This document shows, one piece after another, positions 2,290 through 5,646 of a DNA stretch of 5,646 bases (position 1 is its first letter; each line of letters opens with the position of its first letter). Source of the DNA: a virus. Taxonomy: Duplodnaviria > Heunggongvirae > Uroviricota > Caudoviricetes. The DNA is taken from IMG/VR virus record IMGVR_UViG_2667527717_000010, positions 1-5,646 of that record. One strand, written 5' to 3'. Made by a program: the position numbers and the translations under genes. The notes below the pieces were generated by a model that saw only the letters and a program-made list of their open reading frames with translations, was not told the origin of the DNA and searched no databases.

Positions 2290-2472
2290 ATGGAACTAGT
2301 CATGTGGATATTCAAGTGCATAGGCGTAACTATTTGCCTGTTATCAGGGATACTGGTTACCGCTCTACTGGTGGGATTCGTAGCTCAATATTCCTGGGAA
2401 AAAATAAGGGTAGCTCATTCCGTTGTTGAAATTCAACGCGCCGTAAAGGCCTACAAAAACAAGAAGGACTAA
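2290..2472 (+). CDS. Small predicted membrane peptide, 60 aa, single N-terminal transmembrane helix and basic C-terminal tail
   Basis: ATG 2290 lies 1 nt after the upstream stop, preceded by AAGGGGGA. Hydrophobic stretch WIFKCIGVTICLLSGILVTALLVGFVA followed by a charged tail (KAYKNKKD). Confidence 0.45.
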   Translation: MELVMWIFKCIGVTICLLSGILVTALLVGFVAQYSWEKIRVAHSVVEIQRAVKAYKNKKD

Positions 2473-2589
2473 CCCATGACCACTATTACCAAAAAACAGC
2501 GTGCAGAGTTGCGCATGAAGTTCGGCGGTCGTTGTGCTTAGATTGGTAGCGCATGTCTGGCAGCACCGACACAAACAGAAGGATAACCG

Positions 2590-2847
2590 ATGTTCTGCCT
2601 GATTCAGCGTGGACAAATTTATACAGATTTTGACGGCTATCCTGTGACGATTTACCGCTGTGACGCCGACAGGATTGTGTATCGCCGTAATGACAGCCAA
2701 ATCCGTTCGGTTTCCACTGGTGAATTTAATGCGAAATTCGAGCGTATTGAATATCAGGAATATGCGCAGATAAAAGCCGAAATGGCCCGGGAGGAAAATA
2801 TCCGAAATTTACGCAATCAGGCCAGAGAAAATAAAGCAGCAGGATAA
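2590..2847 (+). CDS. Hypothetical protein, 85 aa
   Basis: ORF in the same orientation with AAGGA a few nt before ATG 2590; protein-like composition with a charged, helical-looking C-terminal half. No family recognised. Confidence 0.4.
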   Translation: MFCLIQRGQIYTDFDGYPVTIYRCDADRIVYRRNDSQIRSVSTGEFNAKFERIEYQEYAQIKAEMAREENIRNLRNQARENKAAG

Positions 2848-2939
2848 ACGCTGATATTGCCAGACAGTAAATAGAGGTAGAACGCTTAAAAACACCGCTC
2901 ACGCGGCGGGATTCGTGCAGCCTGAAAACGGAGGACATT

Positions 2940-3164
2940 GTGGACGCATTATTACGATACGCAACAAACAGAATTATCGAACTGGAGACCATGCTGTTAC
3001 CCGCAATACCGGAAATCATCCTTCGGGATTACCGTGGCAAGAAGTACACCAAGGACAAGCAAATTACTAGCTGTGGTAATGCGGTACCACCGCAGTTAGC
3101 TGAGGCGCTGGTGAGAGCTAACCTGCCTGAAATGTGTGTACAGCGTGAGGATCAGGCTGCATGA
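2940..3164 (+). CDS. 74-aa ORF carrying a cytosine-C5 DNA methyltransferase motif-X-like signature (SCGNAVPPQLAEALV); likely a C-terminal remnant of a prophage orphan methyltransferase, or a small methyltransferase-tail-like protein
   Basis: GTG start 5 nt after a strong GGAGG (2930-2934); the stop overlaps the next gene's ATG (ATGA at 3161-3164). GNAVPP followed by LA.A is the classic motif X of C5-methyltransferases (established knowledge). The in-frame upstream region is open only back to TAA 2868-2870, so there is no room for motifs I-VIII. Confidence 0.45.
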   Translation: MDALLRYATNRIIELETMLLPAIPEIILRDYRGKKYTKDKQITSCGNAVPPQLAEALVRANLPEMCVQREDQAA

Positions 3165-3514
3165 AAAAACATATCTGCATGTTTTGTGGTGAACCGGCCA
3201 CGCTGCTCTGCGATGGGAATCTCGGCTTTCCTCCAAAAGATGACCGTGGCAGAGAATGCATTGACGCATTCCACCAATATACCTGCGATGCGCCCATGTG
3301 CAGAAAATGTGGCACGCAGATGATGCGCATGTTCGTATCCGGGCGGAAACCTTATGCGGGGATCCACACAGTAGATCACTGCCCTATTTGTCTGCGTGAT
3401 CTGCCAACCTATCCAGCCCATGTGCGAAGGACATCTACTCGCAGGAGCAGGCAGAAGTTATCCGCGCTTCGCATTGGGCTGGTTACCAGAATGACCATAC
3501 GAAACGGCTGGTAA
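3161..3514 (+). CDS. Cys-rich putative zinc-ribbon protein, 117 aa, with a basic C-terminal tail; possibly a Lar/restriction-alleviation-like or other anti-defence protein
   Basis: Translationally coupled ORF. Three CxxC pairs (C6/C9, C47/C50, C74/C77) plus further Cys and His residues, and an Arg-rich C-terminal tail. It sits in the xis-proximal accessory position where Rac-type prophages carry ydaC/ralR-like genes. The functional label is inference. Confidence 0.5.
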   Translation: MKKHICMFCGEPATLLCDGNLGFPPKDDRGRECIDAFHQYTCDAPMCRKCGTQMMRMFVSGRKPYAGIHTVDHCPICLRDLPTYPAHVRRTSTRRSRQKLSALRIGLVTRMTIRNGW

Positions 3515-3578
3515 CTGAAAAAGGAGCTGAGCTGCAATCCTTTGATTTCTGGACCTGATCATCGTTGTTCAACCCCGG

Positions 3579-3609
3579 CCATCAGCTATTACGTATAGTG
3601 CGCTGATGG
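3579..3609. promoter_or_regulatory. Perfect 8-bp inverted repeat CCATCAGC-N15-GCTGATGG with a nested TACGTA palindrome in the only sizeable intergenic gap upstream of xis-int; candidate operator or regulatory hairpin
   Basis: Read directly: 3579-3586 CCATCAGC and 3602-3609 GCTGATGG are reverse complements; TACGTA at 3590-3595. A possible -35/-10 pair (TTGTTC 3565-3570, 16-bp spacer, TATTAC 3587-3592) overlaps the left arm. A second inverted repeat (GGTCAT 3608-3613, ATGACC 3628-3633) brackets the xis ribosome-binding site. Confidence 0.3.
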
Positions 3610-3634
3610 TCATAAAGTAAAAGAGACATGACCA

Positions 3635-3853
3635 ATGATTCAGCAAATCGTTTTTAATGAAGAATGGATGGTAGAAAAAAAACTACAGGATCGGACTGGT
3701 TTAAATGACCGCCAGATTGAGAAATACAGGCAAAATTGCTGGATTGAAGGGGTTCATTTTAAAAGAGTATCTCCCTTAGGAAACCTCAGAAGTTCTCGCG
3801 GAACGACCTGGTACAACTACCCCATGATTAACAAGTTTATTCAGGATTCCTAG
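3635..3853 (+). CDS. xis: Excisionase (Xis/AlpA-like winged-helix directionality factor), 72 aa
   Basis: Small basic ORF ending 2 nt before the int start codon. EEW...R.G...RQI.K.R...WIEG.HF pattern resembles lambda-type Xis (from memory); xis-int adjacency is canonical. Confidence 0.65.
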
Positions 3854-3855
3854 CG

Positions 3856-5103
3856 ATGGCTGCTTTACCAACAGGTGTAGAAATCAGAGGTAGTAGCATC
3901 TGTATCTGGTTTATGTACAGAGGAAAACGTTGCCGCGAAACTCTCAGAGGATGGAGCATAACACCTGCTAATATCAGAAAAGCAGGTAATCTGCGCTCAA
4001 TTATCGTCAGTGAAATCAACATGGGCGAGTTCGACTACCAGACTCGCTTCCCATCCTCCAAAAAAGCAATAAAAATTGTCACTACGGTTTCAGTCAGAAC
4101 TCTAGGCGAACTCTGTGATCTGTGGCTGTCGATAAAAGAGACTGAACTGGCGGCTAACACCTTGCGCAAAACCAGCTCGCAGCTCGACACGCTGAAATTC
4201 ATTATCAATAAAAACACGCCACTTTCGACGATTCGCCACAGCGACATTCTGAACTACCGCAACGAGCTGCTAAACGGAGAGACAAATTACCGAAACGCCA
4301 CGAGAGGAAATAAAACCGGCCGTACCGCGCGCACGGTTGATAATTACATTTCCCTGCTCTGCTCCCTGCTCCGTTTTGCGCAGCACTCAGGGTTTATTAA
4401 GCACAAACCTTTTGAGGGGGTTCGGAAGCTGCAAAAAGCCCGGATCAAACCGGACCCGCTCACAAAGCAGGAGTTTGCACAGTTGATGGAAGCAGAATAC
4501 GGCCAGAGCCAGAATCTGTGGAAATTTGCAGTATATACGGGCCTTCGTCATGGTGAACTTGCTGCGCTGGCGTGGGAGGATGTGGATCTCGAGGCGGGAA
4601 CAGTCAGCGTGTGCCGTAATCTGACCATTATCGGTACCTTCGGGCCGCCAAAGACAGATGCAGGCTACCGGACAATAAAGCTGCTGGAACCTGCGTTGGA
4701 AGCGTTGAAAGCACAGCGTGAACTTACCGCCCTCCAGCCAAAGTCAAAAATCGTTTTTAACCACCGTGAATATGGAAGGACAGAAACCCAGCGCGTGCAC
4801 TTTGTTTTCATGCCAAGGATGCGTAAAGGCGAGCAAAAACCGTATTACAGCGTATCGAGCATCGGGCACCGTTGGAACGCTGCCGTAAAACGTGCTGGCA
4901 TTCGTCGTCGGAATCCATATCACACACGGCATACTTTCGCCTGCTGGTTGTTATCCGCCGGTGCAAACCCGTCGTTTATCGCAAGTCAGATGGGACATGA
5001 AAATGCACAAATGGTTTATGAAGTATATGCAACATGGATGGATGATATGAACAAAGATCAAATTGAACTAATTAATAGAAACTTACTAAACTCTTTATTT
5101 TAA
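3856..5103 (+). CDS. int: Lambda-family tyrosine integrase (site-specific recombinase), 415 aa
   Basis: N-terminal arm-binding-type block LPTGVEIRG...WFMYRGKRCRETL; catalytic-domain signatures RHGELAALAWEDVDL, HTRHTFACWLLSAGANP and the terminal Tyr region MVYEVYATW (R...H-x-x-R...Y of tyrosine recombinases). Overall resemblance to Rac-type IntR is from recollection. Confidence 0.9.
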   Translation: MAALPTGVEIRGSSICIWFMYRGKRCRETLRGWSITPANIRKAGNLRSIIVSEINMGEFDYQTRFPSSKKAIKIVTTVSVRTLGELCDLWLSIKETELAANTLRKTSSQLDTLKFIINKNTPLSTIRHSDILNYRNELLNGETNYRNATRGNKTGRTARTVDNYISLLCSLLRFAQHSGFIKHKPFEGVRKLQKARIKPDPLTKQEFAQLMEAEYGQSQNLWKFAVYTGLRHGELAALAWEDVDLEAGTVSVCRNLTIIGTFGPPKTDAGYRTIKLLEPALEALKAQRELTALQPKSKIVFNHREYGRTETQRVHFVFMPRMRKGEQKPYYSVSSIGHRWNAAVKRAGIRRRNPYHTRHTFACWLLSAGANPSFIASQMGHENAQMVYEVYATWMDDMNKDQIELINRNLLNSLF

Positions 5104-5646
5104 GAAAGATGATATAAACATCGTACAATTCAAAATCAGATTACTGAATGATAATGCCGACACTAAACCGAATATTTTATATAACGTGTTACATTGAGAA
5201 TCCAATGCATTCTCTTTTTTATTAAGCTCCGTCAACTCTAACTTTTTCAACTCATCACGCATTGTCCTAAAAAGAACACTATACTCTGACTGACATTCTT
5301 GCACCAATACTTTTTGATAATTTGTAAGATAATATATGGTGAACGTCGTATATAAAGAAAGAACTATAGCTGCCATATTTAAAACCCACGAGTTTACATT
5401 ATCAAATTTCCCCATGGCAGCAAAACTGATTATTCCAGATATAGGAATGGCAAGTGACCTTGTAAGGGTGTCATACATTATGGAATTGAGTTTAGATAAA
5501 TAATCCCTGAATTTCTCTTGGTACTCCTTTCTTATTTTTTCAAAACTAAACCCGACCGTAAACGAAAGGTAATTTTCTTGGAAAATCCGTGAGAACAATG
5601 TAAAGTCGGTTAAAATTTTTGAAAGTCGATCTTCTTTCTTTACTCT
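5095..5646 (-). CDS. AT-rich gene for a predicted membrane protein (two central transmembrane helices, a coiled-coil-like segment and a hydrophobic C-terminus), convergent with int; the 5' end probably lies beyond the window
   Basis: Minus-strand frame open from the window edge (5646) to the stop at 5095-5097. The ORF track starts at TTG 5596-5598, which has no Shine-Dalgarno; the first ATG is codon 41 (5476-5478). Hydrophobic segments LAIPISGIISFAAM, WVLNMAAIVLSLYTTFTIYYL and IFGLVSALSFSNLILNCTMFISSF. The stop lies 9 bp inside the int coding end. G+C is visibly much lower than in the prophage genes. Confidence 0.5.
   Translation of the reverse strand, partial: RVKKEDRLSKILTDFTLFSRIFQENYLSFTVGFSFEKIRKEYQEKFRDYLSKLNSIMYDTLTRSLAIPISGIISFAAMGKFDNVNSWVLNMAAIVLSLYTTFTIYYLTNYQKVLVQECQSEYSVLFRTMRDELKKLELTELNKKENALDSQCNTLYKIFGLVSALSFSNLILNCTMFISSFLK

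What the first reader, a model, noticed from the sequence alone, without database searches (positions are those of the whole stretch)
2871..3164. 74-aa ORF retaining only the motif-X tail of a cytosine-C5 methyltransferase, yet with a strong ribosome-binding site and coupling to the downstream gene
SCGNAVPPQLAEALV is a near-textbook C5-methyltransferase motif X (GNAVPP..LA.A), but the frame is open only from 2871 and translation can start only at GTG 2940, so the catalytic motifs are absent. It may be a deletion remnant of a prophage orphan methyltransferase, a common anti-restriction device, kept for coupling to the downstream Cys-rich gene. It may instead be a stand-alone methyltransferase-tail peptide that modulates a host or phage methyltransferase or restriction complex. 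Its coupling to a zinc-ribbon protein in the position where Rac-type prophages carry restriction-alleviation genes supports the second reading, but this is speculative.
Basis: partly seen in the sequence, partly recalled or inferred. Interest (0 to 1): 0.6.

Follow-up and report, generated by a model that had tools for sequence, protein, structure and literature searches.

The report
Deletion scar of a prophage methyltransferase
The 74-codon ORF is what remains after a ~2-kb in-frame deletion joined the first 25 codons of a small phage gene to the last 48 codons of the cytosine methyltransferase gene next to it, so its good ribosome-binding site and its overlap with the next gene are inherited, and it is ordinary prophage gene decay.

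Summary
ORF 2940-3164 ends with a genuine C5-methyltransferase motif-X tail (tblastn E 1e-16 to 1e-18). It has a GGAGG Shine-Dalgarno site 5 nt upstream of its GTG start, and its stop overlaps the next gene's start (ATGA).

The ORF is a chimera. Codons 1-25 are the 5' end of a small 85-90-aa gene (phrog_16025) that in intact relatives lies just upstream of, and overlaps, a 659-715-aa C5-methyltransferase. Codons 26-74 are the 3' end of that methyltransferase. Three distinct intact loci (L020, L022, L023) carry small ORF, methyltransferase and the same Cys-rich gene in that order, with the identical stop/start overlap. The junction maps to window 3014/3015, implying a ~2012-bp deletion.

So the start site and the coupling are inherited, not evolved for a tail peptide. 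The fusion appears to drift neutrally (5 nonsynonymous to 2 synonymous changes versus a Salmonella-borne copy; DUF4222 next door 1.5 to 5.5). It sits between other lesions: an HNH remnant and a frameshifted Cys-rich gene. Its full-length architecture is unique among 1.84 billion representative proteins.

The deletion-remnant reading is supported. The stand-alone regulatory-peptide reading is not. Retention for coupling remains possible but untested. Interest is low.

The parts
2930..2934 (+). Shine-Dalgarno GGAGG, 5 nt upstream of GTG 2940. It occupies the same position as the purine-rich SD of the small ORF in most intact relatives.
   Evidence: Sequence; upstream regions aligned across loci and anti-SD duplex -9.5 kcal/mol.
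2940..3014 (+). Codons 1-25 (V/MDALLRYATNRIIELETMLLPAIPE): the 5' end of the small 85-90-aa ORF (phrog_16025) that precedes the methyltransferase in intact loci.
   Evidence: phrog_16025 profile positions 1-27, E 2.2e-6; BLASTP 13/27 identities from M1 to M1 with L001:1082-1336; L009 and L023 small-ORF translations; blastn window 2968-3015 = L023 3796-3843.
3014..3015 (+). Deletion junction (…CCGGAA|ATCATC…). About 2012 bp are missing relative to L023, with at most 1 nt of microhomology.
   Evidence: Left and right blastn matches both end or start at window 3015; base-by-base three-way display; E. coli methyltransferase DNA matches all start at window ~3015; phmmer alignment starts peak at residues 25-27.
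3015..3164 (+). Codons 26-74 plus stop: the last 49 codons of a 659-715-aa C5-cytosine methyltransferase (after motif IX through the C-terminus).
   Evidence: tblastn and BLASTP to phage methylases; 82-84% DNA identity to L020 and L023 from 5855 on; parent motifs placed against PDB 3g7u and DNMT1.
3072..3092 (+). Motif X core CGNAVPP, the only canonical C5-methyltransferase motif retained.
   Evidence: Translation; column conservation among 151 relatives; motif X alignment in the parent.
3147..3151 (+). GAGGA inside the last methyltransferase codons, 9 nt upstream of the Cys-rich gene's ATG: the likely SD of the downstream gene.
   Evidence: Sequence; the same context is present in L011, L020, L022 and L023. 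Function is inferred.
3161..3164 (+). ATGA stop/start overlap between the fusion ORF and the Cys-rich gene. It is ancestral.
   Evidence: The same GCNGCATGAA junction is found in intact loci L020, L022, L023 and L039, and in L011.
3161..3514 (+). Cys-rich (zinc-ribbon-like) gene, phrog_10082 family. Here it carries a 1-nt deletion near 3431, so the conserved C-terminal tail is out of frame.
   Evidence: phrog_10082 E 6.7e-24, profile positions 1-93 of 138 only; tblastn frame switch between 3424 and 3433; CGAAGGA-CATC here, CGAAGGATCATC in L011 and L020.
3433..3558 (+). Out-of-frame remainder of the Cys-rich gene (…EQAEVIRASHWAGYQNDHTKRL…FDFWT*).
   Evidence: tblastn Zn residues 92-130 at 3433-3549, frame 1; translation; homologous tail in L011 and in the Erwinia phage homolog.
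2476..2541 (+). Neighbouring lesion: the first 21 codons of an HNH endonuclease gene, cut off by a ~1.6-kb deletion.
   Evidence: phrog_2118 HNH E 1.2e-6; phage HNH gene matches; intact 140-aa gene in L034 and junction sequence.

Best explanation
ORF 2940-3164 is a gene-fusion scar in the early-left arm of a Rac-type prophage integrated at ttcA in E. coli. The ancestor carried a translationally coupled cassette: a small ORF (85-90 aa), a large orphan C5-cytosine methyltransferase (about 660 aa) and a Cys-rich gene. One illegitimate deletion of about 2012 bp removed codons 26 to the end of the small ORF and all of the methyltransferase except its last 49 codons. The two parent genes overlap in different frames, and a deletion length of 2 mod 3 joins them in frame. 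As a result, ribosomes can still start at the small ORF's native initiation site (SD plus GTG), read 74 codons, and stop at the methyltransferase's native TGA inside the ATGA overlap with the Cys-rich gene. The product lacks motifs I-IX and the target-recognition domain, so it cannot methylate DNA. It is most likely functionless and drifting. At most it passively keeps ribosome delivery to the downstream gene. Shown: the chimeric origin, the junction, the ancestral start and overlap, and the absence of catalytic motifs. Inferred: translation, lack of function, and the reason for methyltransferase loss. On that last point, a resident C5-methyltransferase is a liability in hosts with m5C-dependent restriction such as McrBC. 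That rests on general knowledge and was not tested here.
For: The N-terminal 25-27 residues match the start of the small ORF. The C-terminal 49 residues match the methyltransferase end. Intact modules lie upstream of the same Cys-rich gene in L020/L039, L022 and L023, with a parent scoring PF00145 80 bits. The left match ends and the right match starts at window 3015, and the 2012-bp gap is 2 mod 3. The start codon is homologous and an SD sits at the same place in most intact loci. The GCNGCATGAA overlap is identical in intact loci. An independent second fusion exists in L011 with a different junction, MDAAL|MRILQPHELY. Between the window and L034, which share the junction, the fusion ORF shows 5 nonsynonymous and 2 synonymous changes (ratio about 0.75), against 1.5 and 5.5 (about 0.07) for the adjacent DUF4222 gene. 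S44 replaces an Arg present in 91% of 151 relatives, and none has Ser. Only P0001 matches full length among 1.84 billion representatives. Other remnants of this methyltransferase have unrelated N-termini and different junctions. Neighbouring lesions include the HNH remnant, the Cys-gene frameshift, and deletion of the Cys gene in L034/L035. The single-sequence AlphaFold model is poor, pLDDT 54.
Against: The ORF has stayed open, with a strong SD, in both E. coli and Salmonella-borne copies. With only 7 substitutions in 225 nt that is expected under neutrality, and the substitution counts are too small to exclude weak selection. Both independent deletions upstream of this Cys-rich gene subfamily are in frame (chance about 1/9), which hints that frame preservation may matter. 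No expression or phenotype data exist.
Confidence: 0.85

Rival explanations
1. Selected leader ORF. The scar is kept open and in frame because translation through it, ending at the ATGA overlap, is needed to express the downstream Cys-rich gene by translational coupling and by unmasking its GAGGA SD. Its amino-acid sequence is irrelevant.
For: The ATGA overlap and the GAGGA SD lie inside the retained methyltransferase 3' codons and are conserved in intact loci. Two independent deletions (window lineage and L011) both keep the small ORF's start and the methyltransferase frame. An L010-type remnant with no coupled downstream gene is entered out of frame. Near-neutral pN/pS is what a sequence-independent leader would show.
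Against: There are only two independent events. In L034/L035 the Cys-rich gene is deleted yet the ORF persists. In the window the Cys-rich gene is itself frameshifted, so there is little sign that its expression is under selection. In L027 and L029-L032 the Cys-rich gene has its own strong SD and no overlapping upstream ORF.
Confidence: 0.1
2. Stand-alone methyltransferase-tail peptide. The 74-aa product is a functional small protein, for example a dominant-negative or modulating partner of a host or phage C5-methyltransferase or restriction complex, possibly acting together with the zinc-ribbon protein.
For: Motif X is intact and the ORF has good translation signals. Many short ORFs ending in the same tail exist in databases. 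C5-methyltransferase fragments can associate, as in M.AquI, M.EcoHK31I and M.SssI fragment complementation (PMC3404938).
Against: The translation signals are inherited from another gene. pN/pS is about 0.75 overall and about 1.2 in the tail. There are rare substitutions at conserved tail positions. The short relatives have unrelated N-termini and variable junctions, so they form no conserved family, and many may be partial gene calls. No full-length homolog exists outside this lineage. The Cys-rich gene usually occurs without any methyltransferase tail. There is no confident autonomous fold. PADLOC gives only weak methyltransferase-tail hits.
Confidence: 0.03
3. Small subunit of a split C5-methyltransferase (like M.AquI beta or M.EcoHK31I beta) that complements a large subunit encoded elsewhere.
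For: It carries a conserved methyltransferase motif on a separate small polypeptide, and split C5-methyltransferases exist (PMC3404938).
Against: Known small subunits carry motif IX, with or without part of the variable region. This ORF starts after motif IX. No partner with motifs I-VIII occurs in the 20 kb around the gene in L004-L007. The first third of the ORF comes from an unrelated gene.
Confidence: 0.01

Closest known systems
Truncated or partial C5-methyltransferase genes in temperate phages, e.g. mEp237 gene 046 (134 aa, annotated 'similar to C-terminus' of a Klebsiella site-specific methylase) and the truncated batIM homolog in a B. thuringiensis prophage (PMC8936443)
   Same: A C-terminal piece of an orphan phage C5-methyltransferase left in an otherwise syntenic prophage, with the catalytic motifs missing.
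   Different: Here the remnant is an in-frame fusion to the 5' end of the upstream accessory ORF. It therefore retains a native start and SD as well as the native stop/start overlap with the next gene. Only 49 methyltransferase codons remain.
Intact small-ORF plus large C5-methyltransferase cassette of enterobacterial lambdoid and Rac-like phages (Klebsiella phage 5 LV-2017 ARB15724/ARB15725; E. coli WP_131445573/WP_487320629; IMG/VR loci L020, L022, L023)
   Same: This is the direct parent architecture. The start of the small ORF, the methyltransferase C-terminus, and (in L020, L022, L023) the downstream Cys-rich gene and its ATGA overlap are all the same.
   Different: About 2 kb is missing from the window, so motifs I-IX and the variable region are gone.
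Naturally split C5-methyltransferases M.AquI (alpha/beta) and M.EcoHK31I (PMC3404938)
   Same: A conserved C-terminal methyltransferase motif on a separate small polypeptide.
   Different: Their small subunits contain motif IX (M.AquI beta also has half the variable region and motif X) and are encoded next to a large subunit. The window ORF has only motif X, has no partner, and has a foreign N-terminus.
Rac prophage restriction-alleviation gene ralR (lar), between recT and xis (position known from E. coli K-12 Rac; my own knowledge)
   Same: The same genomic neighbourhood: recT-proximal small genes just before xis-int at the ttcA site.
   Different: Neither the 74-aa ORF nor the Cys-rich gene shows a Lar-family match. 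The best Pfam hits for the Cys-rich protein are three weak zinc-binding families at E about 0.15.

Membership tests
C5-cytosine DNA methyltransferase (Pfam PF00145) | Motif I, AdoMet-binding FxGxG | tested here: not met
   Absent from the 74-aa product. Present in the intact parent (FAGGGGAS, L020 residues 8-15), aligned to PDB 3g7u.
C5-cytosine DNA methyltransferase (Pfam PF00145) | Motif IV, catalytic Pro-Cys, with motifs VI and VIII | tested here: not met
   Absent. The parent has SPDCRHFS and DYGxPTIRKR. The deletion removes them.
C5-cytosine DNA methyltransferase (Pfam PF00145) | Variable or target-recognition region and motif IX | tested here: not met
   The junction lies after the parent's motif IX (RMLQPHELYRCQGFPEWY). 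The 'PE' in the window comes from the small ORF.
C5-cytosine DNA methyltransferase (Pfam PF00145) | Motif X (GNAVPP) | tested here: met
   CGNAVPP at 3072-3092. C, G, N, V and the second P each occur in 97-100% of 151 relatives; A in 89% and the first P in 66%.
C5-cytosine DNA methyltransferase (Pfam PF00145) | Score above the curated family threshold | tested here: not met
   12.1 bits against a gathering cutoff of 22, E 0.13. No NCBIfam hit. No PDB sequence hit at E<=1.
Split C5-methyltransferase small subunit (M.AquI beta / M.EcoHK31I beta type) | Carries motif IX (with or without part of the variable region) and is encoded beside a large subunit with motifs I-VIII | tested here: not met
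   Motif IX is missing. tblastn with a full methyltransferase finds only the tail in the 20-kb loci L004-L007. Family definition taken from PMC3404938.
phrog_16025 small ORF (85-90 aa partner of the large methyltransferase) | Full-length match to the 85-position profile | tested here: not met
   Only profile positions 1-27 match, E 2.2e-6. Residues from about 26 onward are replaced by methyltransferase sequence.
Lar/RalR restriction-alleviation proteins (considered for the coupled Cys-rich neighbour) | Sequence match to the Lar family model | tested here: not met
   A Pfam scan at E<=1 returns only Phage_zn_bind_5, DZR and zf-B_box at E about 0.15. PHROG assignment is phrog_10082, unknown function.
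Anti-phage defence system components (PADLOC) | Match to a defence-system protein model | tested here: not met
   The 74-aa ORF gives only weak methyltransferase-tail hits (E 1e-3 to 8e-3). The Cys-rich protein gives none.

The most novel reading that the evidence does not exclude
The most novel reading not excluded: short ORFs ending in this methyltransferase tail are retained repeatedly in enterobacterial prophages because they do something. Either they act as in-frame leader ORFs that deliver ribosomes to the gene behind the lost methyltransferase, or the motif-X peptide interferes with C5-methyltransferases of the host or of competing phages. The two independent in-frame fusions upstream of the same Cys-rich gene (the window lineage and L011), and the many chimeric tail-bearing ORFs in the 1.84-billion-protein library, would then reflect selection and not just ascertainment.
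Probability: 0.07. Interest if true: 0.45.

Novelty: already known. Interest (0 to 1): 0.1.

Why it matters
It matters mainly for annotation. The ORF should be labelled as a fusion pseudogene or remnant (small ORF 5' end joined to a C5-methyltransferase 3' end), not as a hypothetical protein or a methyltransferase. The strain should not be expected to carry the prophage's m5C modification. It is also a clean example of how an internal in-frame deletion can leave an ORF that looks well designed, with a strong RBS and coupling to the next gene, purely by inheritance. That is a useful caution when reading small ORFs in prophage cargo regions. If the coupling-leader idea were confirmed on a larger set of alleles, it would be a modest illustration of operon architecture constraining how genes decay.

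Tried and rejected
1. Megablast of window 2400-3600 against 5,426 complete E. coli genomes found nothing, although the host flank is E. coli. This prophage variant exists only in draft assemblies and metagenomes.
2. The first related-loci scan of genome contigs with the single Cys-rich protein found no relatives. It worked only with an alignment.
3. A degenerate DNA pattern across the methyltransferase-end/Cys-gene junction recovered only the three intact viral loci and one metagenome copy, with no further deletion alleles. The in-frame versus out-of-frame statistic therefore stays at n=2.
4. The search for homologous proteins (word-indexed) returned only 4 hits. The exhaustive representative search was needed.
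5. The BLASTP extension of the 97-aa frame over the parent's residues 614-671 at first suggested a contiguous C-terminal fragment. I rejected this because that part is gapped and weak, DNA similarity starts only at 3015, and the N-terminus matches the small ORF ungapped from residue 1.
6. A microhomology-mediated deletion at the shared CCGGA(A/G) in both parents was considered. The window lacks the TGGTAC that such a crossover would retain, so the junction has at most 1 nt of microhomology.
7. A PDB sequence search with the 74-aa product found nothing. The single-sequence AlphaFold model is low-confidence and uninformative.
8. The promoter and terminator scan found no plus-strand signals in 2400-3700.
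9. PADLOC on the Cys-rich protein and on the two cargo genes beyond int gave nothing.
10. The antisense ORF 2726-3019 (97 aa) was not supported by any evidence and was ignored.

Full report
**Setting.** The window is the early-left arm of a Rac-type prophage. Its genes are:
- RecT (499-1554, PF03837)
- DUF977 (1564-1908)
- Ead/Ea22 (1905-2288)
- a 60-aa membrane ORF (2290-2472)
- an HNH fragment (2476-2541)
- DUF4222 (2590-2847)
- the 74-aa ORF (2940-3164)
- a Cys-rich 117-aa ORF (3161-3514)
- excisionase (3635-3853, PF06806)
- integrase (3856-5103)

Contigs that encode exactly the same 74-aa product also carry RecE, YdaS/YdaT-like genes and a repressor on the left, and ttcA, dbpA and zntB on the right. 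That flank is 99.9% identical to E. coli chromosomes. None of 5,426 complete E. coli genomes contains window 2400-3600, so this is a rare variant.

**Observation.**
- The frame opens at 2871.
- The first start codon is GTG 2940.
- GGAGG lies 5 nt upstream of it.
- The stop overlaps the next ATG as ATGA.
- The C-terminal similarity to C5-methyltransferases is highly significant: tblastn E 1e-16 to 3e-18 on annotated phage methylases, and phrog_23072 positions 352-400 of 400 at E 1.3e-13.
- It is sub-threshold for Pfam PF00145 (12.1 bits against 22) because only motif X is left.

**What it really is.** PHROGs gave the key clue. Residues 1-27 match the first 27 positions of phrog_16025, an 85-position family labelled 'DNA methyltransferase' (E 2.2e-6).

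In Klebsiella phage 5 LV-2017 an 85-aa ORF (MDSSLEYACKRLQELESLLLVDVPE…) lies at the 5' end of a 715-aa methylase gene and overlaps it. In an E. coli prophage a 90-aa ORF (…DALLGYAYRRIVELENLLLPNISE…) overlaps the start of a 690-aa C5-methyltransferase. The window ORF begins V/MDALLRYATNRIIELETMLLPAIPE, which gives 13 of 27 identities, ungapped from residue 1, with the Klebsiella protein. It ends like the methyltransferase: …DYRGKKYTKDKQITSCGNAVPPQLAEALVRANLPEMCVQREDQAA. The ORF is therefore a chimera of two neighbouring genes.

**Intact relatives and the breakpoint.** I searched with an alignment of the Cys-rich protein and its homologs. Three distinct viral contigs (L020, L022, L023) and a metagenome copy (L039) carry the intact order: small ORF (85 aa), then C5-methyltransferase (659 aa; PF00145 80 bits), then the Cys-rich gene.

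At DNA level, window 2968-3015 matches L023 3796-3843, inside the small ORF. Window 3015-3216 matches L023 5855-6056, the methyltransferase 3' end running into the Cys-rich gene. Window 3015-3635 matches L020 at 83.6%. A base-by-base display puts the junction at …CCGGAA|ATCATC…, with at most 1 nt of microhomology. DNA matches to E. coli methyltransferase genes all begin at window ~3015. In an exhaustive search of 1.84 billion representative proteins, alignment starts peak at query residues 25-27.

The deletion is about 2012 bp, which is 2 mod 3. That is exactly what is needed to join the two overlapping parental frames in frame. Aligning the parent to solved structures identifies motifs I, IV, VIII, IX (RMLQPHELYRCQGFPEWY) and X. 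The junction lies just after motif IX, so only motif X survives.

**The 'designed-looking' signals are inherited.** The start codon is at the homologous position: GTG GAC GCA in the window and L034, ATG GAC GC… in L011, L020, L022, L023 and L001. A purine-rich SD lies 5-7 nt upstream in most of them, though it is weak in L023. The GCNGCATGAA stop/start overlap with the Cys-rich gene is the same in the intact loci. A GAGGA that probably serves as the downstream gene's SD lies within the last methyltransferase codons. No plus-strand promoter-like or terminator-like site interrupts the operon.

**Is the fusion under selection?** A copy with the same junction occurs in a prophage whose host flank is only 78% identical to E. 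coli. This fits the source label Salmonella enterica. Between the two copies the fusion ORF has 5 nonsynonymous and 2 synonymous differences (pN/pS about 0.75; about 1.2 in the methyltransferase-derived part). The adjacent DUF4222 gene has 1.5 and 5.5 (about 0.07). The counts are small, but they fit neutrality.

The window and L034 carry Ser where 91% of 151 relatives have Arg and none has Ser (…VARCGNAVPP becomes ITSCGNAVPP). There are other rare residues as well. Only the query's own cluster matches over the full length among 1.84 billion representatives. A single-sequence AlphaFold model is low-confidence (pLDDT 54), which is weak evidence only.

**The neighbourhood is decaying.** Three other lesions lie close by:
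- The HNH gene is reduced to 21 codons by a ~1.6-kb deletion.
- The Cys-rich gene has lost one T near 3431, which puts its conserved C-terminal tail out of frame.
- In L034/L035 the Cys-rich gene is almost entirely deleted (window 3190-3542) while the fusion ORF remains.

**Other remnants.** The same methyltransferase family has been eroded many times in different ways:
- **L011:** an independent in-frame fusion after codon 5 of the small ORF (MDAAL|MRILQPHELY…), again overlapping an 81%-identical Cys-rich gene.
- **L010-type remnants:** found in E. coli genomes, entered out of frame from an unrelated ORF.
- **mEp237 gene 046:** retains 121 methyltransferase codons.
- **P0004:** joins motif I to motifs IX-X.
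- **Many short database ORFs:** unrelated N-termini fused at various points to the same tail.

These do not form a conserved stand-alone tail family. The protein database can only show in-frame, gene-called cases, so it gives no frame statistics.

**The Cys-rich neighbour.** It belongs to phrog_10082, of unknown function. In most loci it follows unrelated genes or has its own SD, and no methyltransferase is present. It shows no Lar-family match. The synteny argument for a tail-peptide plus zinc-ribbon restriction-alleviation pair therefore does not hold.

**Mechanism.** The best explanation (confidence 0.85) is a neutral deletion scar. It can probably still be translated from the small ORF's initiation site and terminates at the ancestral overlap, and its product has no methyltransferase activity.

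A minority possibility (about 0.1) is that the open frame is retained because it delivers ribosomes to the downstream gene. Two of two independent deletions upstream of this Cys-rich gene subfamily are in frame. Against this, the downstream gene is damaged or lost in the very lineages that keep the ORF.

A functional tail peptide (about 0.03) and a split-methyltransferase subunit (about 0.01) are not supported. Known split enzymes place motif IX on the small subunit and have an adjacent large subunit (PMC3404938). Why the methyltransferase was lost is inference only. Truncated prophage methyltransferase homologs are already documented (PMC8936443), and m5C-dependent restriction in the host is a plausible driver that was not tested.

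**Verdict.** The deletion-remnant reading is supported and refined to base resolution. The regulatory-peptide reading is not supported. This is ordinary prophage gene decay, useful mainly for correct annotation.

Noticed in passing
window 2476-2541: The first 21 codons of an HNH endonuclease gene (MTTITKKQRAELRMKFGGRCA*) are followed directly by sequence that in L034 lies just upstream of DUF4222. This is a ~1.6-kb deletion that removed most of the HNH gene and a DUF551 gene. The intact 140-aa HNH gene is at L034 5909-6331.
   Followed up: yes
window 3161-3558: The Cys-rich gene (phrog_10082, unknown function) has lost one T near 3431 compared with L011 and L020. The conserved C-terminal tail (EQAxVIRxAHWAxxQNDH…GGGQQ…F) is now out of frame at 3433-3558. 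In L034/L035 the gene is almost entirely deleted (window 3190-3542).
   Followed up: yes
L014-L033 (Cys-rich gene homologs), positions about 5700-6010: The Cys-rich gene behaves as a mosaic module. It follows several unrelated upstream genes, usually with the same …GCNGCATGAA overlap, so many upstream proteins end in 'AA'. In Providencia loci L016, L017 and L019 the ORF coupled upstream is a small CxxC…CxxC protein that resembles Lar-type restriction-alleviation proteins by eye. This was not tested.
   Followed up: partly
window 5095-5646 (minus strand); L004 12156-14857: Beyond int lies a low-GC (0.32-0.35) two-gene cassette on the opposite strand: a 402-aa protein with no Pfam family and a 341-aa NA37/YejK-like nucleoid-associated protein (E 1e-42). 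It is bracketed by the live int and a 3' integrase remnant (aa 346-411, 71% identity) immediately upstream of ttcA. It looks like separately acquired cargo or a relic of tandem integration. PADLOC gave no match.
   Followed up: partly
L001 1082-1339; L009 1803-2075; L020, L022 and L023 3768-4022: An 85-90-aa ORF (phrog_16025, labelled 'DNA methyltransferase' only by association) lies just upstream of the large 659-715-aa C5-methyltransferase and overlaps its start in five of the seven intact loci examined. L003 and L008 match only its C-terminal two-thirds. It has no Pfam or NCBIfam match and its role is unknown.
   Followed up: partly
L034 (Salmonella-labelled assembly GCA_010369405.1) compared with L004-L007 (E. 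coli): The same prophage arm, with the identical fusion junction, sits at the ttcA site in two host species. The int-to-ttcA segment is 95-99% identical, but the dbpA-zntB flank is only 78% identical. The deletion therefore predates inter-species spread of this prophage.
   Followed up: partly
P0004 (122 aa): Another internally deleted C5-methyltransferase. Motif I (FAGGGGAS) through …YCESVWDVDP is joined directly to motifs IX-X (HELFAAQGFP…CGNSVCPP). This shows that in-frame internal collapse of these genes recurs.
   Followed up: no
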